Positions 3,333 to 47,000 of a stretch of 64,000 nt of DNA are shown piece after piece. The notes under the pieces were generated by a model, which searched no databases, was not told the DNA's origin, and saw nothing but the letters and a program-made list of their open reading frames with translations. Origin of the DNA: a virus (lineage: Duplodnaviria > Caudoviricetes). The stretch lies in IMG/VR virus record IMGVR_UViG_3300031853_000006, positions 52,897 through 116,896 of that record; one strand, 5' to 3'. The translations under genes were made by a program, and so were the position numbers. Each line of letters begins with the position of its first letter. The stretch's first letter is position 1.

Positions 3333-3361
3333 TTGACAAAATTGCAAATACATATTATAAT
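3333..3361 (+). promoter_or_regulatory. sigmaA/sigma70-type promoter
   Basis: TTGACA-17 nt-TATAAT. Confidence 0.8.
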
Positions 3362-3416: not shown

Positions 3417-5672
3417 ATGCCTAAAGCAATCAATCTAACTAGCACACAAGTAGAAGAACTGAAACAGCTAATTGCAGACGGCACTACACAGCAAAACGCT
3501 TGCAAACATTTTGGAATCTCCGAAAGTAAGTTAGCAGCTATTTGCAAAGAGAATAACATTGAACGCAAGTGGGTTAGAGAATATACTTGTGTTCTGTGCG
3601 GAAAGGTCTTCAAGGCATCTCATAAATCTGCTATATGTCCTGAATGCAAAGCTACTCCGAATGTGTGTGTAATCTGCGGAAAAGCATTCCCAAAGAAGTA
3701 TTTCCCTTACAATCAAAAGACGTGTTCCGCTAAATGTCGAGGAGCATACAGAGCTCAATCCGGCACCGCAAAAGCAGGAGCACAGAAAATGAAAGAAACT
3801 AAAATGGAGCGCTACGGCACGCTAGATCCTGCGGAAGTAACTAAGAAGAAAAAGGGAGGAGAACTTGATCCCAAGATCTGCCCATTGTGTGGAAAAGAAT
3901 TTGTACCGGATACTCCTAGACAAGTCTACTGCAAAGATGTTCATTATGTTCCCTGTCCGGTCTGTGGCAAGATGACAGAACTCAAAGATATTTCTATAGG
4001 CCCTCAGGCTTGCTCAGAAGGATGTAGAATGGCAAGGATCAATCAAACTTGCCTAGAGCGATACGGGAATAAGGACGCAGTCAATTCGGAGCACGCGAAG
4101 AAACTGGGAAAGCAAACATCGCTTAGAAAGTATGGCAAAGAATATTACATGCAGACTGATAAAGCGAAGCAGCATTACAAAGATGTTATCCAAGAGAGAT
4201 ATGGAGTCACAGCTCCTATAGCATATCCAGAATTCAAGGAGAAGGCTAAGCGGACTAATCTGGAGAAGTATGGAACAGAGTATGCTTCACAGTCTGAAGA
4301 GATAAAAGAAAAGGTTAGACAGACTAATCAAGAGCTCTATGGTGGGGCAGGCTTCGCTTCGCCTATATTACGCAAGCGCATAACAGAAACAAACAAAGAG
4401 CGGTATGGAGTAGAATTTCCAGTGAGCAGCCCAGAAATCCGACAGAAGATATCTCAGTCCCTTCGTGATAATTATGGAGTAGATAACTTCTGGAAAACCA
4501 AAGAAGACTTAGCAAGACGGATCAAAGATCCAAGAAAGATTGACGATTACTACGCATTTAAGCAAGATCCTAGAGGGTATGTAGAAAGCCATTACGAAGA
4601 TAAACCTCCAATCTATGTACTAGCAGATGATCTGGGAGTCACAGATACGCCCATTTATGATATACTCATCAACGCGAAATGTCAAGATGTAATAGATAGA
4701 ACTAAACAGTCTAGCATGGAGTATGAAATCGAGCACTTATTGCGAAAGCTGGTGCCCGATGCAGAGATATGGGTCAATTGTAGACGAGTTCTTCCTGAAA
4801 ATAAAGAGATTGATTTCTACTTGCCAGAATACAAATTCGGCATTGAATGTAATCCAACTATCACGCATAATTCTACAGTGTCTGCATGGAACCCTGGAGT
4901 AGATCCCGCGCTGCCCGTCAGTTATCATAAACAGAAATCAGAACAAGCCATGCAGGTAGGCGTGTTCCTATTTCATATATTTGGATATGAATGGACAAAC
5001 AAACGAGCCATAATAGAATCAATGATTGCAAATATCTTAGGCAAAAATACAAATAAGGTCTATGCGAGGAATACACAGATAATACAAGTAGACGCGCCGA
5101 CGGCTAAGAAGTTTCTAGACGATAATCACCGCCAAGGAGGGACTAACGCACCTATCAGATTAGGGCTCAAAGATAAGATTACTAACGAATTAGTGAGCCT
5201 CATGACCTTTGGAAAAACACGTCCTAGTATCGGAAAGGAGCAAGATGCATTAGATACAGATTACGAATTGATACGATTCTGCAACAAATTGGGTACATCT
5301 GTAGTCGGAGGAGCGTCGAAGTTATTTAAGCATTTCTTATCAGAATATGCCCCAACAAAAGTGATATCATTTTCTGACATAGCACATACTAAAGGAGGAC
5401 TGTACCGGACACTAGGGTTCAAGGATGTAAGTCATTCTGATCCCGGATATGTATGGGTGAAACATTACACTGACGAATACCGAAACCGTGTATCCTGCCA
5501 GAAGGCGAACCTTCTAAAAATGTTTGACGATGTGACAGAAGAGGATATTGAAACAAAGTCAGAACGAAAAATCATGATAGACCACAAATACGTACAGGTT
5601 TACGATAGCGGAGTCATACGATGGGAGTATACTCCAGTATCGTTAAATAGTGCAGAAGATGGAGGTGAATGA
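3417..5672 (+). CDS. Hef-like free-standing homing endonuclease (HTH, CxxC zinc ribbons, TxxERYG repeats, PD-(D/E)xK-like domain)
   Basis: 'EIDFYLPEYKFGIECNP..THNS..YH', 'YARNT..FLDDNHRQG..LVSLMTF..ELIRFC..VVGGASKLF' match the large-phage Hef-like family. Confidence 0.75.
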   Translation: MPKAINLTSTQVEELKQLIADGTTQQNACKHFGISESKLAAICKENNIERKWVREYTCVLCGKVFKASHKSAICPECKATPNVCVICGKAFPKKYFPYNQKTCSAKCRGAYRAQSGTAKAGAQKMKETKMERYGTLDPAEVTKKKKGGELDPKICPLCGKEFVPDTPRQVYCKDVHYVPCPVCGKMTELKDISIGPQACSEGCRMARINQTCLERYGNKDAVNSEHAKKLGKQTSLRKYGKEYYMQTDKAKQHYKDVIQERYGVTAPIAYPEFKEKAKRTNLEKYGTEYASQSEEIKEKVRQTNQELYGGAGFASPILRKRITETNKERYGVEFPVSSPEIRQKISQSLRDNYGVDNFWKTKEDLARRIKDPRKIDDYYAFKQDPRGYVESHYEDKPPIYVLADDLGVTDTPIYDILINAKCQDVIDRTKQSSMEYEIEHLLRKLVPDAEIWVNCRRVLPENKEIDFYLPEYKFGIECNPTITHNSTVSAWNPGVDPALPVSYHKQKSEQAMQVGVFLFHIFGYEWTNKRAIIESMIANILGKNTNKVYARNTQIIQVDAPTAKKFLDDNHRQGGTNAPIRLGLKDKITNELVSLMTFGKTRPSIGKEQDALDTDYELIRFCNKLGTSVVGGASKLFKHFLSEYAPTKVISFSDIAHTKGGLYRTLGFKDVSHSDPGYVWVKHYTDEYRNRVSCQKANLLKMFDDVTEEDIETKSERKIMIDHKYVQVYDSGVIRWEYTPVSLNSAEDGGE

Positions 5673-5673
5673 C

Positions 5674-7686
5674 ATGGCAACTTACACCTGCAAACGGTGC
5701 GGAAAACAGTTTGACCTAAGAGGTTTCAGCAAGTATTGCAAAGAATGTCGTGATTACTACACACCTTGCGTTATTTGCGGAACTCCAGTGCACCAGACGA
5801 ATCCGGAAAATGAAGCTAAAACATGTTCAAGAAAGTGTGCAGGGCTGTATAGAAAACAATCTGGAATAAGTAAAGCTACTGCGGAGAAATCGATAGCGAC
5901 TAAGAATAAGAAGTACGGCAACGGGTCAGGGGCTAAGTACAAGCCGAGGAAGTGTAAGCTCTGCGGAAAAGAGTTTATCCCAAATGGTTCAAAACAAGTT
6001 TACTGCAAGAATCCACATTACGGTCCGTGCCCTGTTTGCGGTAAGCAAACACTTATAAGGGAATTAAGCAAAGGACCGAACGCTTGTTCAGAAGAGTGTA
6101 GAATAGCTCTTATTACTAAGTTAGCGAGAGAGCGCGATAATACCGAGTCGCTGAAGAAGAACCGGCAGACTTGCTTAGAAAGGTACGGAGTTGAATATTA
6201 TTCCCAGACTAAAGAGTGGCGTGACAAAGTAGCCGAAACGTCAATGGAACATTACGGAACTACTTGCCCGCTAGCTAGCCCCGAAATTCATGAACAACTT
6301 GTTAAAACTAATATAGAGAAATATGGCTATGCTAATCCTGCGCAAGCTCCTGAAATAATTGAAAAGATTTCAAAGACTTTAGAAGAGCGTCATGGAGGTT
6401 GCGGAATGGCATCTGACGCAACACGTGAAAAGATATATGCAACTAACAAAGAACGCTACGGAGATATCCACCCTGCAAGGACTTTACAATGTAAGGAGAA
6501 GGGGAAGCAAACATCGTTGGCTCGTTACGGATACGAAAGCTATGCAAGTACTAAGGAAAGCATTGCACGTAGTATGCTAGATCCTAGCAAAATTGATGAC
6601 TTCTGGAGCTTTCGCGCAGATCCTGAAACGTATGTAACATCTCATTACAAAGTGAAACCATATGCAGATGAATTAGCTGCCGATCTAGGATTCAATGAAA
6701 CATCTGTATATGACATATTGATCAACTTCAACTGCAAAGATGTAATCAATCGTAGCAAAACTTCTATTATAGAAAGAGAGATGTACGAGTTCCTGACTAC
6801 ATTAGTCCCCGAATCTGAAATCAGAAAATGTGACAAACGGACAATCACCCCACTAGAATTAGATTTCTATCTGCCGAACTATAATTTTGCAATTGAATGC
6901 AATCCAACATATACTCACAATTCCTCATTCAAGTCCTTCGGAGAGGGTGAGCCTAAAACAACAGTGTACCACAGAAACAAAACAGATAAAGCAGAAGAAG
7001 CTGGGATATTTCTGATGCATGTTTTCGGGTATGATTGGCTTTATAAACAGGACATCATTAAATCGATGATACGCAACGCCTTAGGAAAATGTGATACTAC
7101 AATTTACGCCCGGAATACAGAAGTAAAAGAGCTAGATGCAAAAACTACTCGTGAGTTTCTCAACACTAATCACAGACAAGGTGATGCATCATCTCCTATC
7201 AGATTAGGTCTAATAGATAAGCAGACGAAAGAGCTTGTTTCAGTAATGACGTTTAGCAAACCTCGTACAACTATCGGAAGTAGTGCAGATGATCCTGAAG
7301 GATCTTATGAGCTTGTCAGATTCTGTAGTTTGCTAAATACTTCTGTAGTAGGAGGGGCTTCAAAACTATTCAAGTGGTTTAGTAGTAACTATAATCCTAC
7401 AAAGATAATATCATTCTCAGATAGAGCGCATACTCGAGGAAACTTATACAGCTCCTTAGGTTTTCACGAAGTTCGAAGATCTGATCCCGGTTACGCATGG
7501 GTCAACGTATACACAGAAGACTACAAGAGCCGTGTAGCCTGCCAAAAACACAAACTCCCTCAGCTATTTGACGACGTAACTGAAGAAGATATGAGCAATA
7601 AGTCAGAACGAATCATAATGATGGAACATAATTACGCGCAAGTTTATGACAGCGGGACAATACGATGGGAGCTAGAACCCCGTTGA
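5674..7686 (+). CDS. Hef-like free-standing homing endonuclease (paralog)
   Basis: Same architecture as 3417-5672; start moved to ATG 5674 after GGAGGTG. Confidence 0.75.
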   Translation: MATYTCKRCGKQFDLRGFSKYCKECRDYYTPCVICGTPVHQTNPENEAKTCSRKCAGLYRKQSGISKATAEKSIATKNKKYGNGSGAKYKPRKCKLCGKEFIPNGSKQVYCKNPHYGPCPVCGKQTLIRELSKGPNACSEECRIALITKLARERDNTESLKKNRQTCLERYGVEYYSQTKEWRDKVAETSMEHYGTTCPLASPEIHEQLVKTNIEKYGYANPAQAPEIIEKISKTLEERHGGCGMASDATREKIYATNKERYGDIHPARTLQCKEKGKQTSLARYGYESYASTKESIARSMLDPSKIDDFWSFRADPETYVTSHYKVKPYADELAADLGFNETSVYDILINFNCKDVINRSKTSIIEREMYEFLTTLVPESEIRKCDKRTITPLELDFYLPNYNFAIECNPTYTHNSSFKSFGEGEPKTTVYHRNKTDKAEEAGIFLMHVFGYDWLYKQDIIKSMIRNALGKCDTTIYARNTEVKELDAKTTREFLNTNHRQGDASSPIRLGLIDKQTKELVSVMTFSKPRTTIGSSADDPEGSYELVRFCSLLNTSVVGGASKLFKWFSSNYNPTKIISFSDRAHTRGNLYSSLGFHEVRRSDPGYAWVNVYTEDYKSRVACQKHKLPQLFDDVTEEDMSNKSERIIMMEHNYAQVYDSGTIRWELEPR

Positions 7687-7838: not shown

Positions 7839-8405
7839 CTATCGGCTAGCAACTTCTACAGCGCGTTTGATTACTTTCTTAGCATAGTCGAAAGCCTCTT
7901 CGTAAGATCCATATTTCTCTCCGTTTACAGTTATAATTCTTGTATAAGTTTCTAAATTTTCTATCTGCTCATCAGTCAAATATTCTTTAAGTTTTTCAGA
8001 TTTCAGCTCCTGATCTTTGTTATATTTCTGTGAAGCGCTGCGCTTGGGACTATGATTAGATATGCGCAATCTGATCCTGATATTAGCTATGACATTTCCA
8101 TCTGCGTCTGTTGCTAAGTAGTTATAGTAGTGTGAATGATCTGGACTAACATTTTTATATGTCCCAATCAATCCGTAGTTAACTTCGCACAGCCATTCTA
8201 TGTCCTCCATGAATGCTTCGAAATCATCTATCATCCATTGCTTAATCTTCTTCTTATGCCTCGAAATTACGGGCCTGGAGGGGAGTTTAGGATGCGGAAT
8301 ACGTTCAGCTGCAGCTATAGTTCGAGGGTCAATCGAATAACCTGCGTCTACTACTATGTCAATGATTGCAGGATTAGTTTGATTACCCCTAACAAATATC
8401 TTCAT
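7839..8405 (-). CDS. LRIS[DN]H-motif protein, paralog of 46485-47000 (possible RNase-like effector)
   Basis: Shares S-x-YY...LRISNH...I-x-V-x-G..Y..A motifs with 46485; RBS AGGAAGGAG. Confidence 0.75.
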   Translation of the reverse strand: MKIFVRGNQTNPAIIDIVVDAGYSIDPRTIAAAERIPHPKLPSRPVISRHKKKIKQWMIDDFEAFMEDIEWLCEVNYGLIGTYKNVSPDHSHYYNYLATDADGNVIANIRIRLRISNHSPKRSASQKYNKDQELKSEKLKEYLTDEQIENLETYTRIITVNGEKYGSYEEAFDYAKKVIKRAVEVASR

Positions 8406-8421
8406 ATCTATACTCCTTCCT

Positions 8422-8586
8422 AAAATATAAAAGCATCACTAGAAGTAGAACAGTATGTTCTCGGCCAAGACAACAATACCCACGATTCTCTAGTGATGCT
8501 AATATTCATAACGATTTACATCGTTGGGTACTTATCTCTATGTCTTGGCTTAATTTTATTATAAGCCCTGATAGGTGAAAAGTCAA
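8422..8586 (-). promoter_or_regulatory. sigmaA promoter plus structured leader RNA with internal ATCGTTA motif
   Basis: TTGACT(8586-8581)-17-TATAAT(8563-8558); stems 8549-8541/8472-8464, 8530-8520/8486-8477, 8500-8489/8443-8432; U tract before RBS. Confidence 0.7.
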
Positions 8587-8725
8587 GACTTTTCTTAATA
8601 TTTTCCAAATTACACAACGATTGCATATGAAAATCGTTAAATAATTCAAGAAGGGCACTTGACCCCTCACACGACGTAATGAGCAAATTACTTGAATCAG
8701 GATTCTAAAAGGAGAAGAACCGCCT

Positions 8726-9034
8726 ATGGATCACAGAGATAACAAAAAGAAAGTACTAAGTTCCGGAGGAAGCCGAAGATTATCGAATCAGCTGAATCCG
8801 TCGTTTACAACAGAACGAAGAAAAGATGAATGGTTGATTGATAGTTGCATTTACAAAGCCGATCAAAAGTTTTCTAATTCGCACTGCGGTAAGAGGTGTA
8901 AGAATAGGAATGTTAGCGCTCTTAAGTGCCGAGGCGGATGCGGTTGTGAATACTACTTGTCGACGAAAGAATGGCGTCTTTCAAAGAAGGGCAAAGCGAT
9001 TAACCTGAAGGAGGAGTTAGGTCATGCCAGATGA
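8726..9034 (+). CDS. hypothetical Cys-rich protein
   Basis: ORF with AAGGAG RBS; several Cys residues. Confidence 0.55.
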   Translation: MDHRDNKKKVLSSGGSRRLSNQLNPSFTTERRKDEWLIDSCIYKADQKFSNSHCGKRCKNRNVSALKCRGGCGCEYYLSTKEWRLSKKGKAINLKEELGHAR

Positions 9035-13678: not shown

Positions 13679-13806
13679 GTGTGTTACCTCCTTTAGATAT
13701 TCAGAACAATACCAATCTACCCATATAAAAGGTGAGCCTCCGTGAAATCGTTAAGTAAAATGAGAGAGGTGACAGTTCAAATCAATCACCACGGAGGTAA
13801 AGAAAC

Positions 13807-14904
13807 ATGATTAAAGTAGAAAACATTGATGTATGGGGGTTCGAACATGCTATAAGAGGAATGCGGAACCCAATGAATTCATGGGACAAAAGTGATAGTG
13901 GGGTAGGGTGCTCCTCTGCAGACGGCAACACGTCATTCTGCTTGCATTGCACAGAGAACTCAGAATGTGTTGCCGGATTTCACAACTACTGTGTAGGCGA
14001 AGCTGATCTCGGTTTGATGCAAAGGCTATTCAGAGCGAGCAAGGATGGTAACAACGCTCACAGAAAGTACCTTAGGCAAATCTTTGTGTCGATGGATATC
14101 ACGGCTCCGCTATACTGGTGGAAGGAGTTTGACACATACAAAGTAGGCACAGTTTCCAATTCGTGTTCGACCATGCACAAGATCCATGCAAATAAATTCA
14201 CTCCAGATGATTTCAGCATTGAGCATCTAGATGCGATTCCGAGAATCCGCATGCTTGACTTAATTGATACACTCAATAATTGTCGAGAGACTTATCTCAA
14301 GTCTAAGGATAAGCACGACTGGTGGCAAATGATACAGCTTCTGCCCTCGTCCTACAATCAAAGACGCACCCTCACGTTTGATTATGAAAATGTATACGCA
14401 ATGATACAGCAGCGAGAGGGTCACAAGTTAGACGAATGGCGAGAGTTCGTCAAAGTGCTCAGAGACCTGCCGTATGTCAAGGAAATAGCAGGTTGGGCTA
14501 CTAGCAAATCCAAAGAAACTTGCTCAGAATCCGAAGAAACTCGTACTGAATCCAAAGAAGTCCTGATGTATGTGGGTACTTTTGAATATGATCACTCTGA
14601 GGGCATCACTAATATTAAAAAGGTGCCGGTGTCGAAATCTGATATTGAACCCGACGTAATTTCGATTACTTCGATTAAAGCGGAATTCGACACTGAAGTC
14701 CCTGGCATAGCTGGGCAGTGCAGCGTAAGGTATGACGGAGAAGCAGGAAAGATATTAGTCATTTATCCTGTGGGATTTCCGCTGAGCCTCAGAAATACTA
14801 TCGCACGTGAATTCGAATTGGACAAAGACTGCACAGTATTCCTATCAGGATTGCGCTACGCCACTAGCCCATTCATTGAACATTTTGGAGGTAAGTTCGA
14901 TTAA
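13807..14904 (+). CDS. conserved phage protein (ThyX-fold-like) with C-terminal extension
   Basis: 'AIRGMRNPMNSW', 'HRKYLRQI', 'APLYWWKEFDTYKVGT..NSCSTMHK', 'HKLDEW'. Confidence 0.6.
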   Translation: MIKVENIDVWGFEHAIRGMRNPMNSWDKSDSGVGCSSADGNTSFCLHCTENSECVAGFHNYCVGEADLGLMQRLFRASKDGNNAHRKYLRQIFVSMDITAPLYWWKEFDTYKVGTVSNSCSTMHKIHANKFTPDDFSIEHLDAIPRIRMLDLIDTLNNCRETYLKSKDKHDWWQMIQLLPSSYNQRRTLTFDYENVYAMIQQREGHKLDEWREFVKVLRDLPYVKEIAGWATSKSKETCSESEETRTESKEVLMYVGTFEYDHSEGITNIKKVPVSKSDIEPDVISITSIKAEFDTEVPGIAGQCSVRYDGEAGKILVIYPVGFPLSLRNTIAREFELDKDCTVFLSGLRYATSPFIEHFGGKFD

Positions 14905-21398: not shown

Positions 21399-23435
21399 AT
21401 GAAGATTACGCGAAGAAAGATCACCGCTGCTACTAGAGTAGCCGAAGTTCCTGCGCCTTTCAACAAGTATTATAGGCTGATGTCAGATGCTGAATTTGAA
21501 GATGAATTTGATGTACCCGCTCACCCGTCACCCTGCGAAGAGCAAAAAGGTTATGATGTTGAATTCATTTCATACATTACAGCGAAGCCTAATGTAGCTG
21601 GAGTTTTAGAAGACGAAGGCCTAGACGTGCTGGAATTGATAAAAGAAGGCGGGAGAATTTTTCCAGCATACACAGTACATGATCGTATCATTCCGCTTTC
21701 AGAGTCAGAACTTCCTGAATTGTACGATTGGGATGACGACGAATATGTAGAATCTACTACAGAAGTTGAAAGCGCTGTAGATACTGGATTAACTTACTGG
21801 TATTACAGCCGTCATGGTATGGGTCCGGGAACAATACCAACTAATGTAACGGTCTTGGATACAGTAGAAGAAGGATGGAAGACCTGGATGCTACTCGATA
21901 AGATGCTCACAACAGAAGAGCTTGATTTCTACGATCTCAAAGAGGAACAGCCGCCGGAAGGATCTGTAACTCATAACGGTGACACAATCGAGGGATATGA
22001 CGAAGTAACTGCTTCGAGTTGCGAGAAGGTTAGCGAAACAGACGATACAATAAGCTATGTTGTTACATCTTCTCAAGCAGAAGGAGATGTAGAAGCAACA
22101 AGCCTTGTTAACTACAAGGGGTACAAGATACTCCCGGATCGACATGCGTTCTGCTGGAATGTCCTTGACAAAGATGCTTCGCTCATAGAAACAGGTTTCC
22201 AGAACGAGCGTGCAGCAAAAGAATACATTGACGTCAATCTGTCAACTGAAGCAGATGGTGAAAGCATTACAGCTGCAATAGACGTTGACAGTATCGACTT
22301 AGATGCACTCAAGCGTGAGATTGAAGAAGCAATCGTAGAATACTTTAAGAGTCCGGAAGCCGGATGGTCAGAAGATGAAGCTGAACAGGCTGCAAGAGAC
22401 TACTCCGTTGTAGAGGTAGAAAAATACGACGACAATTCCATCAAAGTAGAAGTAAGAACCGATCTTTCATTTGACAGCATGATGAATCTTTCGCAGTTGC
22501 TTGATCCGATTGTTGAACAGTACGACGAAGATGCATATTTCGATATGGAAGATGCAGGCATCATGAATGCCTTCTTAACTAACGAGGTTGATACCTCTAC
22601 CGAAATAGAAGCTGCCCATAGCGATTTTCAGAGTGATCGGTCAGCAGCACTTGATAGACATAACGAGCGCATGATAGGTCAATACGACAGATACCATGGC
22701 GAGCCTGGCGAGGGCAAAGAAATACCTGAACCGGATCCAATCTATTCTGAGTTCGACTTCAACTATTTAGTATCTGTAGACTCTGAGGGTAACGTGATAC
22801 ACTTAGACGATGACGCCCTCATGCATGCATCACTGCTCGATGAGGAAGGTGTTTCAGAAGAATCAATGCTCGAAAGTTTCGATGAATTGATGCTATGGTA
22901 CATTCCGGATAGGCCAGGTAACTATCGAGTAAAGGGTCACATCAAGATGGTGTATGCTCCTGAATGGAACAGCTTCGATGTTGATTATGACTACGATCTC
23001 GATCCAGAAGCAACTGCTGTAACAGATGTTCAAGTAACTAACGCCGGAAACCGAGTAGAGTCTTCAATTGCATCAGAAGGTACTGCAGTAGAAGCTGCAA
23101 TGACGGAGGACGAACTCGACAATGCGATCTTAGAAGGCAAACCATTCAGTCTTCAAGACTTCAAGAAATACAAGTCTTTCGACACTGATGAATACGTAAT
23201 GCCAGAAGACCTGAAAGTCGGAGACATTATCGTCAACGACGCAACAGCAGATCAGATGGAGTGGGGCACACGTTACGAAGTAATCAGCATCAACGATCCG
23301 GCAGACACAATGTTCGATTACACGGTACGCGTTAGGCTCCTGACGGATCCGAGAGTCAAGGGCAAGAAAGAAGGCGATATCATGACGCTTTACTTCTACC
23401 AAGACGATCCTGTAGGCAGTTACTACGAAGGTTGA
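21399..23435 (+). CDS. acidic multi-domain protein with DarA_C-like module; candidate polyprotein
   Basis: 'YWYYSRHGMGPGTIP...LTTEELDFYDLKE' resembles DarA C-terminal domain; repeated [VI]x[AS][AST] linkers. Confidence 0.7.
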   Translation: MKITRRKITAATRVAEVPAPFNKYYRLMSDAEFEDEFDVPAHPSPCEEQKGYDVEFISYITAKPNVAGVLEDEGLDVLELIKEGGRIFPAYTVHDRIIPLSESELPELYDWDDDEYVESTTEVESAVDTGLTYWYYSRHGMGPGTIPTNVTVLDTVEEGWKTWMLLDKMLTTEELDFYDLKEEQPPEGSVTHNGDTIEGYDEVTASSCEKVSETDDTISYVVTSSQAEGDVEATSLVNYKGYKILPDRHAFCWNVLDKDASLIETGFQNERAAKEYIDVNLSTEADGESITAAIDVDSIDLDALKREIEEAIVEYFKSPEAGWSEDEAEQAARDYSVVEVEKYDDNSIKVEVRTDLSFDSMMNLSQLLDPIVEQYDEDAYFDMEDAGIMNAFLTNEVDTSTEIEAAHSDFQSDRSAALDRHNERMIGQYDRYHGEPGEGKEIPEPDPIYSEFDFNYLVSVDSEGNVIHLDDDALMHASLLDEEGVSEESMLESFDELMLWYIPDRPGNYRVKGHIKMVYAPEWNSFDVDYDYDLDPEATAVTDVQVTNAGNRVESSIASEGTAVEAAMTEDELDNAILEGKPFSLQDFKKYKSFDTDEYVMPEDLKVGDIIVNDATADQMEWGTRYEVISINDPADTMFDYTVRVRLLTDPRVKGKKEGDIMTLYFYQDDPVGSYYEG

Positions 23436-45567: not shown

Positions 45568-46212
45568 TTGAAACGGCAACAGTCTGATAAAGAAACAATG
45601 CAGTGGCAACGCAAGATGCTAGCGCTGTACGGAGTATTGTTACCGATACTTGCACCGCTTGTAGGGTTCATCGCGTATAGCAAGAACGGACCTACATTCT
45701 GGTACAGTATTTCGGCTACATTCTATGCAACGAGTAACATATTCATGATCGGCTCACTTGCAGTATTTGCTTTCTTCTTGTGGACCTACAGAGGATACGA
45801 TCTAGGCGATTTCTTTACATGTAAGTTTTCGGCAGCTATGGCAATAGGAATTCTTGTATTCCCTTGTGAATGCGATGCCGCAGGAGTTACCACAGGAGTT
45901 CTAAATCTACCTACTGCAGTAAGTAATGTGTTCCATTGTATTATTGCAGCACTGCTTTTTGGATCATTTGCATACATGATTGGCTTTAGATTCACTAAGT
46001 CGGGAGCAGATTCAAAAACTTCCGGAAAGGAAAAACGAAACAAAGCCTACATCATATGTGCAATCATAATTGCAGCCTTTATGCTTAATCAAGTAATCAC
46101 ATCTGTTCTTGACATCAAATGGATGACTATCGTCAATGAAGCTTTTATGCTCTGGGCATTCTCGTTTGCATGGGCAGTAAAAGCAGGAATGTTCGAACAG
46201 TTTGAAGACTGA
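45568..46212 (+). CDS. multi-pass membrane protein (DUF998-like)
   Basis: About 6 TM segments; 'SISATFY', 'YRGYD..D', 'H...A.L.F'. Confidence 0.65.
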   Translation: MKRQQSDKETMQWQRKMLALYGVLLPILAPLVGFIAYSKNGPTFWYSISATFYATSNIFMIGSLAVFAFFLWTYRGYDLGDFFTCKFSAAMAIGILVFPCECDAAGVTTGVLNLPTAVSNVFHCIIAALLFGSFAYMIGFRFTKSGADSKTSGKEKRNKAYIICAIIIAAFMLNQVITSVLDIKWMTIVNEAFMLWAFSFAWAVKAGMFEQFED

Positions 46213-46277
46213 CCACTGAATGTTGCAGGTAATGCGGAGGTTCTATGCCTCCGCTTATTTTTTTTTTTTGAAAAGTC

Positions 46278-46470
46278 TTGACAAATTCATAGAAATATCA
46301 TATAATATACTTACACGCTACATTAAACCTATTATATCATTGCTAGAGGAAGTTACAAATACGTAAATCGTTATATTAAAGCGTAATCCGCCGTCTATTT
46401 CGTATTTGTAATTCTGTTTTCCTCTAGCAAGAAAAACACGATTCCAAACAATAGGCGGCGTTTTATATTT
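46278..46470 (+). promoter_or_regulatory. sigmaA promoter plus structured leader RNA with internal ATCGTTA motif
   Basis: TTGACA(46278)-17-TATAAT(46301); stems 46340-46351/46419-46430, 46352-46363/46401-46412, 46389-46399/46450-46460; TTTTATATTT before RBS. Confidence 0.7.
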
Positions 46471-46484
46471 CAGGAGGAGCATCC

Positions 46485-47000
46485 ATGAAAAGATTCATTA
46501 AATCATCGCAAACAGCTGAAGGAGTAAACAGAATTGAAATTGATTTCTACGGAGTTGATCTTGAAGAGGAGGTCGAAGCTGCCAGAAATAATCCAAGGAA
46601 GGTATTCAAGAATGCTGATGTAGTCATTCGAGATGTTAAGGCTTACTTAGAAGACAAAGGATTGAAAATTTTGCGAACTTCTAGAAGTAATCATAAGAAT
46701 TCAGACTCTACATACTACGATGTCGATATTAAAGTAACTAACAATAAGGGTAAGTATGAATTCATTTACCTTCGTATATCTGATCATCCTGAATCAAGTT
46801 TGAATGATCTTCCGAGAAAGAACTATCATGATAGAATAACTCGTTCGTACAAAGGGCTAAAAGATACTGATAATGTTGACGGCTTGTATCACTACGCATC
46901 TATTGAAGTAACAGGAAAGCAATTTAATAACTACGACAGAGCAATGAATCGAGTCAAAGAGCGTATTGATGAGATTCTGAAAGGAGTTGGTTTAGAATGA
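46485..47000 (+). CDS. LRIS[DN]H-motif protein with MKRxIxSS tag, paralog of 7839-8405
   Basis: 'SDSTYY...YLRISDH...IEVTGKQFNNYDRAM'. Confidence 0.75.
   Translation: MKRFIKSSQTAEGVNRIEIDFYGVDLEEEVEAARNNPRKVFKNADVVIRDVKAYLEDKGLKILRTSRSNHKNSDSTYYDVDIKVTNNKGKYEFIYLRISDHPESSLNDLPRKNYHDRITRSYKGLKDTDNVDGLYHYASIEVTGKQFNNYDRAMNRVKERIDEILKGVGLE

What the first reader, a model, noticed from the sequence alone, without database searches (positions are those of the whole stretch)
46278..47000. Conserved dual-promoter, alternatively folding leader RNA in front of LRIS[DN]H genes (locus B; partner at 7839-8586)
Seen: two distant paralogous genes have the same upstream layout. It runs sigmaA promoter, arms A-B, identical GTAAATCGTTAT, arm C, arms B'-A', arm C', identical TTTTATATTT, AGGA(A)GGAG, ATG. 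The stem sequences are unrelated between the loci yet all pair (here 12, 12 and 11 bp), so structure is conserved by covariation. ATCGTTA is a promoter-like motif recurring across the window. Inference: the long transcript folds A-B/B'-A', traps C in a loop and reads through. A transcript from the internal promoter folds C/C' plus U tract (terminator-like), giving an sRNA of about 75 nt whose loop (B'-A') is antisense to A-B. That would be a self-silencing attenuation circuit analogous to P4 CI / P1 C4 RNAs. Alternatively it is a pseudoknotted RNA antitoxin upstream of an RNase, as in type III TA layout. I do not recognise this RNA or its pairing with this protein family.
Basis: partly seen in the sequence, partly recalled or inferred. 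Interest (0 to 1): 0.85.

Follow-up and report, generated by a model that had tools for sequence, protein, structure and literature searches.

The report
Two-fold leader RNA before phage genes
An uncultured cattle-gut phage puts a folded, roughly 150-180-base RNA leader that matches no Rfam family in front of all three copies of one unknown early gene; the leader can fold in two ways, one of which looks like a transcription stop signal, so it probably decides which transcripts reach the gene.

Summary
Both loci have the stated layout at the stated coordinates. A third paralog outside the window (G000:C1:16532-17416) has it too, and so do eight metagenomic homolog loci.

In all 11 leaders a long 5' hairpin (A-B/B'-A') holds strand C in its loop. 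C's partner C' lies downstream, followed by a U tract, a Shine-Dalgarno site and the ATG. Stem sequences differ between leaders but still pair. In the 7-member B family, 6 of 11 C:C' pairs show changes on both sides. Wobble pairs fit the sense RNA (24 G-U against 1 A-C). Rfam has no match.

Energy calculations give two folds of similar stability that cannot coexist in a nested structure. Transcripts from the strong early promoter fold A-B/B'-A'. Transcripts that would start at the internal ATCGTTA motif fold C:C' plus the U tract, which looks like a terminator. ATCGTTA behaves like a phage-specific promoter: it is enriched, strand-biased and lies upstream of genes.

My best reading is a transcription attenuator whose outcome depends on which promoter was used. 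The sRNA self-silencing circuit is possible but untested. The RNase and type III toxin-antitoxin idea found no support. No RNA end data exist.

The parts
46234..46269 (+). Ordinary intrinsic terminator of the upstream gene. It isolates the unit from read-through.
   Evidence: 8-bp GC-rich stem, 5-nt loop, T run; sequence
46278..46306 (+). Consensus early promoter of locus B (TTGACA, 17 nt, TATAAT). One of 15 near-identical promoters in the genome.
   Evidence: 12 of 12 matches
46325..46339 (+). Conserved 5' tail block (AACCTAWTATAT) of the B-family leaders. 5-6 nt of it are complementary to the 5' half of C'.
   Evidence: the MFE pairs it with C'
46340..46350 (+). Arm A (pairs with A')
46352..46363 (+). 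Arm B (pairs with B')
46363..46374 (+). GTAAATCGTTAT, identical in both loci. ATCGTTA is a phage-specific promoter-like motif sitting in the apical loop of the A-B hairpin.
46389..46399 (+). Arm C, the 5' strand of the split terminator-like stem. It lies inside the A-B hairpin loop, 1 nt before B'.
46401..46412 (+). Arm B'
46420..46430 (+). Arm A'. Its UUCCU is also complementary to the Shine-Dalgarno site.
46431..46449 (+). 19-nt linker. ACGATT (46438-46443) is the reverse complement of the AATCGT core of the motif.
46450..46460 (+). Arm C', the 3' strand of the terminator-like stem
46461..46470 (+). U tract (TTTTATATTT)
46472..46479 (+). Shine-Dalgarno site (AGGAGGAG)
46485..47000 (+). LRISDH-family gene, 171 aa, function unknown
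8558..8586 (-). Early promoter of locus A (TTGACT, 17 nt, TATAAT)
   Evidence: 11 of 12 matches
8541..8549 (-). Arm A of locus A. It starts a few bases after the expected transcript start.
8520..8531 (-). Arm B of locus A. Its 3' end (AACGAT) can also pair with the ATCGTT of the motif as a GTAA-loop mini-hairpin.
8508..8519 (-). GTAAATCGTTAT motif of locus A
8488..8500 (-). Arm C of locus A
   Evidence: 13 bp
8476..8486 (-). Arm B' of locus A
8464..8472 (-). Arm A' of locus A
8432..8444 (-). Arm C' of locus A
8422..8431 (-). U tract of locus A
8413..8421 (-). Shine-Dalgarno site (AGGAAGGAG)
7839..8405 (-). LRISNH-family gene, 188 aa, function unknown

Best explanation
The stretch is a cis-acting 5' leader RNA of about 150-180 nt that works as a two-fold transcription attenuator. 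Its outcome depends on whether the transcript carries the 5' arm A-B.

Host RNA polymerase starts at the strong early promoter. Arms A and B pair with B' and A' as soon as these are made, about 20 nt before C' emerges. Strand C is then held in the loop of a helix of about 17-29 bp. C' could reach C only through a pseudoknot, so the C:C' plus U-tract terminator does not form in time. Polymerase runs on into the LRIS[DN]H gene, and the gene is on early.

Any RNA that lacks a free A-B arm folds C:C' plus the U tract instead and should stop about 25 nt before the start codon. That includes a transcript started at the internal ATCGTTA promoter, in the leaders that have one there, and a nascent leader whose A-B arm is bound by something.

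Shown here: the helices, their conservation, the two alternative folds and their energies, and the promoter-like behaviour of the motifs.

Inferred: that C:C' plus the U tract terminates, that A-B blocks it, and what throws the switch in vivo.
For: 1. Same topology in 11 leaders from at least 3 deeply diverged lineages, always before a member of this protein family.
2. 3 of 4 genome-wide scan hits lie before the 3 paralogs, against 1.17 hits expected in all.
3. Every A-B hairpin is far more stable than its shuffles: z -3.1 to -11.3, with 0-1 of 200 shuffles as stable.
4. C:C' covaries. 6 of 11 pairs change on both sides and 94.7% of cells pair. The three counted helices together pair in 93.8% of cells, against 37-58% when the partner is slid.
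5. Single non-Watson-Crick positions inside helices are 24 G-U against 1 A-C, so the sense RNA is the folded strand.
6. C' is GC-rich at its base and is always followed directly by a T-rich run.
7. In 8 of the 9 leaders with valid figures the long-isoform MFE is the A-B hairpin, and forcing C:C' costs only +1.2 to +8.4 kcal/mol (0 in locus A, where C:C' is the MFE). The short isoform folds C:C' in all 9. L002's C coordinates were mis-set in that script, so its figures are not used, and L026 was not included.
8. In L006 and L008 the linker is only 9-13 nt for a 24-25 bp helix. There the two folds can hardly coexist.
9. Of the genome's 15 consensus early promoters, the three paralogs are the only genes with leaders of 152-196 nt; 11 others have 26-90 nt.
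10. Homologs without the leader have the same strong promoter directly before the Shine-Dalgarno site, so this is an early gene family.
Against: - There are no RNA 5' or 3' end data. The only RNA run found gives two small contigs outside the leader.
- ViennaRNA cannot model pseudoknots. With linkers of 17-28 nt in most leaders, both helices might form at once.
- C almost always abuts B' (0-5 nt), which is what a true H-type pseudoknot with stacked stems would look like.
- The trigger is unknown. The ATCGTTA motif lies between B and C in only 8 of 11 leaders, which is two independent lineages.
- The terminator stem closes a loop of 35-61 nt (43-61 in ten of the eleven), unusually large for an intrinsic terminator, and the loop interior is not significantly structured (mean z -0.66).
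- Predicted Shine-Dalgarno accessibility does not separate the two isoforms.
Confidence: 0.45

Rival explanations
1. Pseudoknot terminator with the opposite logic. On early transcripts A-B/B'-A' and C:C' form together as a stacked H-type pseudoknot that terminates efficiently. The strong early promoter then mainly makes a leader RNA of about 160 nt. Transcripts from the ATCGTTA promoter lack A-B, have only a floppy large-loop C:C', read through, and express the gene later. This is the logic of T4 gene e and I-TevI.
For: - C lies 0-5 nt from B' in 9-10 of 11 leaders, L1 is at least 24 nt, and the linker is about as long as the helix in most leaders. This is H-type geometry.
- The same genome places ATCGTTA motifs in loops of hairpins whose 3' arm covers the Shine-Dalgarno site, at window 13727-13825 and G000 21975-22015. 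That is the T4 gene e arrangement (PMC3014915).
- Other family members carry an ATCGTTA motif placed so that it would express the gene (L010, L011, L015).
Against: - L006 and L008 have linkers of 9-13 nt for 24-25 bp helices.
- The short isoform folds C:C' stably at about -23 to -31 kcal/mol, so it should terminate too.
- Leaderless homologs are plainly early genes. A leader that silences early expression behind the strongest early promoter type would be odd.
Confidence: 0.2
2. A static structured 5' UTR with no termination decision. The 5'-terminal hairpin and the second helix protect the mRNA from 5' exonuclease or endonuclease attack, or form an RNase III processing site. The U-rich run acts as a translation enhancer.
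For: - In locus A and the third paralog, arm A starts within a few bases of the expected transcript start. That is the design of known 5' stabilisers.
- The helix of about 17-29 bp is long enough for RNase III.
- The early mRNAs come from very strong promoters.
Against: - This does not explain a conserved GC-rich stem immediately followed by a T run in all 11 leaders.
- It does not explain why C is always placed inside the hairpin loop.
- B-family leaders have a single-stranded 5' tail of about 26 nt before arm A.
Confidence: 0.12
3. The leader is a binding site for a protein, for example autoregulation by the LRIS[DN]H protein itself. Or it is an RNA partner or antitoxin of that protein in a type III toxin-antitoxin-like layout (strong promoter, structured RNA, leaky terminator, protein gene).
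For: - The gene order matches the ToxIN layout.
- Each paralog has its own stem sequences, which would allow cognate pairs.
- The leader is found only with this protein family.
Against: - There are no tandem RNA repeats.
- No loop or junction nucleotides are conserved across the three lineages.
- The protein matches no ToxN, AbiE or other PADLOC model and no Pfam family.
- No RNase-like or other fold was found: Foldseek E > 0.01, best VIA Z 5.5, which is below the noise level stated by the tool.
- About half of the homologs have no leader.
Confidence: 0.08

Closest known systems
Classical terminator/antiterminator leaders (attenuators, riboswitch expression platforms)
   Same: A promoter-proximal leader with two alternative folds of similar energy. 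One is a GC-rich stem plus a U tract just before the ribosome site. The earlier-made helix pre-empts the terminator.
   Different: The antiterminator and terminator share no nucleotides. Exclusion would come from topology, because the terminator's 5' strand sits in the loop of the antiterminator hairpin. There is no conserved ligand pocket, no leader peptide and no known effector.
Antisense-RNA-driven transcription attenuation of Gram-positive plasmids (pT181, pIP501), and RnaG/icsA (PMC2879508, title and abstract seen; the plasmid details are from my own knowledge)
   Same: A 'preemptor' hairpin in the nascent leader prevents a terminator just upstream of the gene. An RNA that binds the 5' arm would free the terminator.
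   Different: In those systems the regulator is a countertranscript from the opposite strand. Here the candidate regulator would be a sense RNA made from an internal promoter and ended by the same terminator. No such RNA has been shown.
Phage P4 CI RNA and P1/P7 C4 RNA immunity (from my own knowledge; the search found no primary paper)
   Same: A small sense-strand RNA derived from the leader pairs with complementary leader sequences of the same operon and causes premature termination.
   Different: CI and C4 are cut out of the long transcript by RNase P or other processing. They act in lysogenic immunity of temperate elements of enterobacteria. Here the RNA would have its own promoter, in a virulent-type myovirus of Firmicutes.
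T4 gene e, soc and I-TevI control: a late promoter inside a hairpin (PMC3014915, section 29)
   Same: A phage-specific promoter lies within a hairpin-forming region, so transcripts from upstream and from the internal promoter fold differently. The same genome has plain examples of this type that sequester the Shine-Dalgarno site.
   Different: In T4 the hairpin's 3' arm hides the ribosome site and the control is translational. Here the 3' arm does not cover the site, and the second element looks like a terminator.
Type III toxin-antitoxin systems (ToxIN)
   Same: The order is promoter, structured and pseudoknot-capable RNA, terminator, protein gene.
   Different: There are no 36-nt tandem repeats, the protein is not ToxN-like, and no toxicity is known.

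Membership tests
Intrinsic-terminator attenuator (antiterminator/terminator leader) | GC-rich stem directly followed by a U tract, located between the promoter and the ribosome site | tested here: met
   All 11 leaders: stems of 7-13 bp, a T-rich tail, and 22-29 nt to the ATG in most. The loop of 35-61 nt is atypically large.
Intrinsic-terminator attenuator (antiterminator/terminator leader) | An alternative fold that excludes the terminator and has comparable energy | tested here: met
   the difference between the folds is 0 to +8.4 kcal/mol in a nested model. Exclusion rests on topology. Coexistence as a pseudoknot could not be computed.
Intrinsic-terminator attenuator (antiterminator/terminator leader) | Transcripts actually end at the U tract, conditionally | not testable with these tools
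   The only RNA run does not cover the leader.
Antisense/sRNA-driven attenuation (pT181, pIP501, P4 CI type) | A separate small RNA complementary to the 5' arm of the preemptor helix | tested here: inconclusive
   A promoter-like ATCGTTA motif lies 4-15 nt upstream of C in 8 of 11 leaders, so a 75-90 nt RNA carrying B'-A' is encodable. No transcript evidence exists. L015, L026 and the third paralog have no clean motif in that position.
H-type pseudoknot | Order S1-L1-S2-S1'-L3-S2', with both stems supported | tested here: met
   Order A/B, loop, C, B'/A', linker, C' in all 11 leaders. Both stems are supported.
H-type pseudoknot | Both stems present at the same time (loops long enough to span the stems) | tested here: inconclusive
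   The linker is 17-28 nt for about 17-29 bp in most leaders, but only 9-13 nt for 24-25 bp in L006 and L008. No 3D or probing data.
Type III toxin-antitoxin (ToxIN-like) | RNA antitoxin made of tandem direct repeats processed by the toxin | tested here: not met
   The leader has no tandem repeats (sequence). Its structure is built from inverted repeats.
Type III toxin-antitoxin (ToxIN-like) | ToxN/AbiQ-type endoribonuclease | tested here: inconclusive
   No PADLOC, Pfam or PHROG match and no significant fold match. A missing match does not exclude a divergent nuclease.
T4 gene e-type control (late promoter inside an SD-sequestering hairpin) | The 3' arm of the hairpin that spans the promoter covers the Shine-Dalgarno site | tested here: not met
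   B'-A' ends 41-54 nt before the SD in the two window loci. Only a weak 5-bp A':SD complementarity exists, and predicted SD accessibility does not differ between isoforms. The feature is met at other loci of the genome (window 13727-13825).
Any Rfam family | Score at or above a family's gathering threshold | tested here: not met
   no match in the 64-kb window on either strand.

The most novel reading that the evidence does not exclude
A self-contained timer made only of RNA. The phage-specific promoter in the hairpin loop and the shared terminator produce a sense-strand sRNA of about 75-90 nt, consisting of the C:C' stem with B'-A' exposed in its loop. This sRNA pairs with the A-B arm of nascent early leaders. 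That keeps the antiterminator from forming and flips the strong early transcription unit to termination once middle or late transcription begins. Each of the three paralogs would have its own orthogonal stem sequences.
Probability: 0.2. Interest if true: 0.8.

Novelty: new variant of a known kind. Interest (0 to 1): 0.6.

Why it matters
If the reading holds, the leader shows a way to gate an intrinsic terminator without shared nucleotides. The terminator's 5' strand is simply locked inside the loop of an earlier hairpin.

It also ties the decision to promoter choice during the phage's early-to-later switch. Very little is known about how gene timing is controlled in uncultured rumen phages of Firmicutes.

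The leader gives a compact, portable part of about 150 nt that could be tested in Bacillus. It also marks an abundant early protein family of unknown function as tightly dosed or timed.

If the sense-sRNA version were true, it would be a new kind of phage timing circuit, related to P4 and P1 immunity RNAs but with its own promoter.

Tried and rejected
- **RNA evidence.** The look-up of sequencing runs gave one bovine-gut metatranscriptome with 7% of the sampled words. Laying it gave two contigs, at 45678-45934 and from 47936, and nothing on the leader. This says nothing either way.
- **Public phage records.** No DNA match.
- **Rfam.** No family.
- **Single-protein scans of viral contigs.** Nothing found. 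The 40-sequence alignment was too diverse for pattern search.
- **DNA pattern search.** The pattern AATCGTTA..ACGAT..GCGTTTT in IMG/VR gave 52 matches, about what chance predicts. The ones inspected were coding or unrelated.
- **Topology scan of three related phage genomes** (G001-G003, about 380 kb). Only chance-level, AT-rich hits, none before a family member.
- **Covariance model R1.** It recovered all 7 B-family leaders (E <= 3e-6) but not locus A, the third paralog or L015. It also mis-aligned arm A in L004, L006 and L007. I therefore could not get a tool count of A/B covariation. Support for A/B rests on the per-sequence results.
- **Anti-SD idea** (A' UUCCU with the SD). The columns pair, but predicted SD accessibility does not separate the isoforms.
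- **Extended terminator hairpin idea.** I asked whether the C:C' loop folds into an extended hairpin. It is not more structured than shuffles (mean z -0.66).
- **General ACGAT enrichment near ATCGTTA.** None (9 against 7.8 expected).
- **Strict 11-nt motif with up to 1 mismatch.** The look-alikes in the third paralog's linker and after the U tract of L026 do not pass, so I dropped the claim that every leader has an internal promoter.
- **Protein function.** Pfam, PHROGs, PADLOC, Foldseek (PDB, BFVD), VIA-align and the ESM Atlas gave nothing reliable.
- **Phage sigma factor or RNA polymerase.** None found among 107 ORFs at E <= 1e-5. The record is only 78% complete.

Full report
**Where the window lies**

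The window is the last 64 kb of a 116,896-bp IMG/VR virus record, estimated 78% complete. GC content is 41.7%. The record has a T4-type portal, RecU, YodL, an amidase_2 lysin, homing endonucleases and an NAD ligase. It is therefore a large myovirus, probably of a Firmicutes host. Its relatives come from rumen and bovine-gut samples. It matches no deposited phage record and no Rfam family.

At locus B a canonical terminator (46234-46254) is followed by a perfect TTGACA-17-TATAAT promoter (46278-46306). The elements then come in this order: A 46340-46350, B 46352-46363, the 12-mer GTAAATCGTTAT 46363-46374, C 46389-46399, B' 46401-46412, A' 46420-46430, a 19-nt linker, C' 46450-46460, TTTTATATTT, AGGAGGAG and the ATG at 46485.

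Locus A on the minus strand has the same order with unrelated stem sequences and the same 12-mer. The two proteins share 25% identity (E 7e-4). Both leaders fold far better than shuffles, with z -3.65 and -3.23.

**The observation extends**

- A blind scan of the whole genome for the topology returned four hits, against a mean of 1.17 in 30 dinucleotide shuffles. The scan asked for a stem of at least 9 bp followed by a T-rich run, closing a 30-95 nt loop, plus a helix of at least 9 bp that joins that loop to sequence upstream of the stem. Three of the four hits are the two window loci and a third unit at G000:C1:16532-16756.
- That third unit precedes a 219-aa protein carrying HLRFSDH, which is related to the locus B protein (E 1e-4).
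- Protein searches found 7 relatives of the locus B protein and 50 cluster representatives for the locus A protein.
- All six distinct loci that encode locus B relatives (L002, L003, L004/L005, L006, L007, L008) keep the layout with different stems.
- Among locus A relatives, L015 and the first gene of L026 keep it. The L026 gene is a divergent member (hhalign 93%).
- About half of the homologs have no leader. They follow another gene directly, or have the same strong promoter placed right before the Shine-Dalgarno site (L023, L025).
- Three related phage genomes contain no further copies.
- The genome has 15 near-identical consensus early promoters. The three paralogs are the only genes with 152-196 nt between the -10 element and the start codon; 11 others have 26-90 nt and one has no called start.

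**Evidence that the helices are real RNA helices**

- Every one of the 11 A-B hairpin regions is much more stable than its shuffles: z -3.1 to -11.3, with 0-1 of 200 shuffles as stable.
- On a plain MAFFT alignment of the seven B-family leaders, a blind search for stacked pairing columns recovered C:C' as the top helix.
- The pair count for C:C' gives 94.7% of cells paired and 6 of 11 pairs with changes on both sides. For the three helices counted together, 93.8% of cells pair, no shuffle reached the observed covariation, and pairing falls to 37-58% when the partner is slid. The structure was picked on that same alignment, which flatters these numbers.
- Between the three lineages the stems share no sequence at all.
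- Single non-Watson-Crick positions inside the helices are 24 G-U against 1 A-C. The folded molecule is therefore the sense RNA, not DNA and not an antisense transcript. The starting helices for A-B were found with G-U allowed, so only the C helix part (7 against 0) is free of that bias.

**The ATCGTTA motif**

- AAATCGTTA occurs 8 times in the window against 0.74 expected.
- Genome-wide, most matches to the extended forms of the motif lie in intergenic DNA, in the sense orientation and tens of bases before start codons.
- It is followed by a -10-like TAWRTA.
- In related phages it is strongly strand-biased: 23 against 1 in G001, 9 against 1 in G003, 5 against 0 in G002, with controls of 0-4.
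- It precedes homing endonucleases, an HD hydrolase, a FabG-like reductase and unknown genes.
- These features fit a promoter for a phage-directed form of RNA polymerase. No phage sigma factor was found in the incomplete record.
- At window 13727-13825 and at G000 21975-22015 the motif sits in the loop of a hairpin whose 3' arm covers the Shine-Dalgarno site. That is the arrangement known from T4 gene e and I-TevI, where upstream transcripts are silent and late transcripts are translated (PMC3014915).
- So this phage does use hairpins that span such motifs to tell transcript isoforms apart.

**Two folds**

For nine leaders ViennaRNA gives usable figures. L002's C coordinates were mis-set in that script, so its numbers are discarded, and L026 was not included.

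| Transcript | Preferred fold | Detail |
|---|---|---|
| Long, from the early promoter | A-B/B'-A' hairpin in 8 of 9 | Forcing C:C' costs only +1.2 to +8.4 kcal/mol. In locus A the C:C' fold is the MFE (cost 0). |
| Short, starting 8 nt before C | C:C' followed by the U tract, in all 9 | About -23 to -31 kcal/mol |

The two folds share no nucleotides. They exclude each other only because C lies inside the A-B loop.

Whether both can form together as an H-type pseudoknot cannot be computed with these tools.

- For coexistence: C abuts B' (0-5 nt in 9-10 of 11 leaders), and the linker is roughly as long as the helix in most leaders.
- Against coexistence: L006 and L008 have linkers of 9-13 nt for helices of 24-25 bp, and linker length does not track helix length.

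**Most likely mechanism**

I take the leader to be an attenuator in which the 5' arm A-B acts as the antiterminator. A-B/B'-A' is complete about 20 nt before C' is made. No strand exchange can displace it, so early transcripts should read through. This fits the family's status as early genes in the phages that lack the leader.

RNAs without a free A-B arm should end at the U tract. In 8 of 11 leaders the ATCGTTA motif lies 4-15 nt upstream of C. That is where a promoter would need to be to make an RNA of about 75-90 nt that is one stem-loop ending in the terminator, with B'-A' in its loop.

Such an sRNA could bind A-B of nascent early leaders and switch them to termination. This resembles countertranscript-driven attenuation (pT181 and pIP501, as cited with RnaG in PMC2879508). 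It also resembles the P4 CI and P1 C4 RNAs, which I know from memory only.

I keep this as the bold reading (probability 0.2), for three reasons.

- The motif position is not conserved outside two lineages. In L015 it is upstream of A. The third paralog and L026 have only imperfect look-alikes elsewhere.
- There is no transcript evidence.
- An opposite logic cannot be excluded: a pseudoknot that terminates early transcripts, with the internal promoter expressing the gene.

**Other features of the B-family leaders, role open**

- The linker carries ACGAT(T), the reverse complement of the motif core. This pairing was the best loop-to-linker match in all seven leaders. It extends differently in L004 (about 10-12 bp), L006 (9 bp) and L007 (9 bp). 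In L002, where the motif reads ATCTT, the linker reads AAGAT, which is a compensatory pair. This pairing crosses both A:A' and C:C'.
- A conserved 5' block (AACCTAWTATAT) can pair with 5-6 nt of C'.
- A' contains UUCCU, which is complementary to the Shine-Dalgarno site. Predicted accessibility does not support a translational effect.

**The proteins**

The family has about 170-220 residues, with nearly invariant S, Y, R-x-S-x-H and a C-terminal Y-x-x-A. It has no Pfam, PADLOC or informative PHROG match.

An AlphaFold2 model has mean pLDDT 76 and an alpha/beta sandwich fold. It has no significant neighbour: Foldseek E >= 0.017 and best VIA-align Z 5.5, below the tool's stated noise level. Nothing supports an RNase.

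**Verdict**

This is a real leader RNA with no Rfam match, confined so far to one gene family in a small clade of uncultured rumen phages. It has an unusual terminator design with pseudoknot topology. The mechanism class is known, while the wiring is unusual and untested.

Noticed in passing
window 13727-13825 (+); also G000:C1:21975-22015: The ATCGTTA motif sits in the loop of a hairpin whose 3' arm covers the Shine-Dalgarno site (CCTCCGTG ... CACGGAGG at 13745; TCCTT ... AAGGA before an HNH endonuclease gene). This is the T4 gene e / I-TevI arrangement: upstream transcripts silent, internal-promoter transcripts translatable.
   Followed up: partly
G000:C1:16532-17416 (outside the window; loci L079/L080): Third promoter-leader-gene unit of the same kind, before a 219-aa HLRFSDH protein. 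Its arm A shares the core CAAGACA with arm A of locus A, and its A' resembles the -35 region of the early promoters.
   Followed up: yes
window 46438-46443 with 46366-46371; same columns in L002-L008: The linker ACGATT is the reverse complement of the motif core AATCGT in all seven B-family leaders, with a compensatory double change in L002 and different extensions in L004, L006 and L007. The pairing crosses both main helices, and no model here explains it.
   Followed up: partly
window 8611-8640 (+): AACGATT-N9-AATCGTT inverted repeat around the ATCGTTA motif upstream of the gene at 8726. Locus A has AACGAT-GTAA-ATCGTT. There is no general ACGAT enrichment near the motif (9 against 7.8 expected).
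   Followed up: partly
whole genome; in the window at 3333, 8586(-), 9427, 14915, 24690(-), 29017, 36322, 42197, 46278, 47937, 50465, 51274: Fifteen almost identical consensus early promoters (AAAAAGTCTTGACAAATTCATATAAATATCATATAAT type). This is an unusually uniform promoter set.
   Followed up: partly
L010, L011, L018 (relatives in IMG/VR and JGI contigs): In more distant phages the LRISxH homolog is preceded not by the leader but by a small ribbon-helix-helix-like gene. That gene has an ATCGTTA motif plus a sigma-A-type promoter upstream.
   Followed up: no
L014, L019, L026: Family members occur as tandem pairs of diverged paralogs in several contigs.
   Followed up: no
window 3417-7686 (+): Two adjacent large paralogs (751 and 678 aa) with many CxxC pairs. 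Four proteins in the genome match DUF7487 and seven match DUF6273, though I did not map these matches to particular genes.
   Followed up: no
N-termini of the family (window 46485, 8405; alignment A1): Most members start MK(R/K)xI and many have a conserved I-AA(S/A) motif about 30 residues in, within the low-confidence part of the model. Another reader of this genome suggested a capsid-targeting leader. I did not test this.
   Followed up: no
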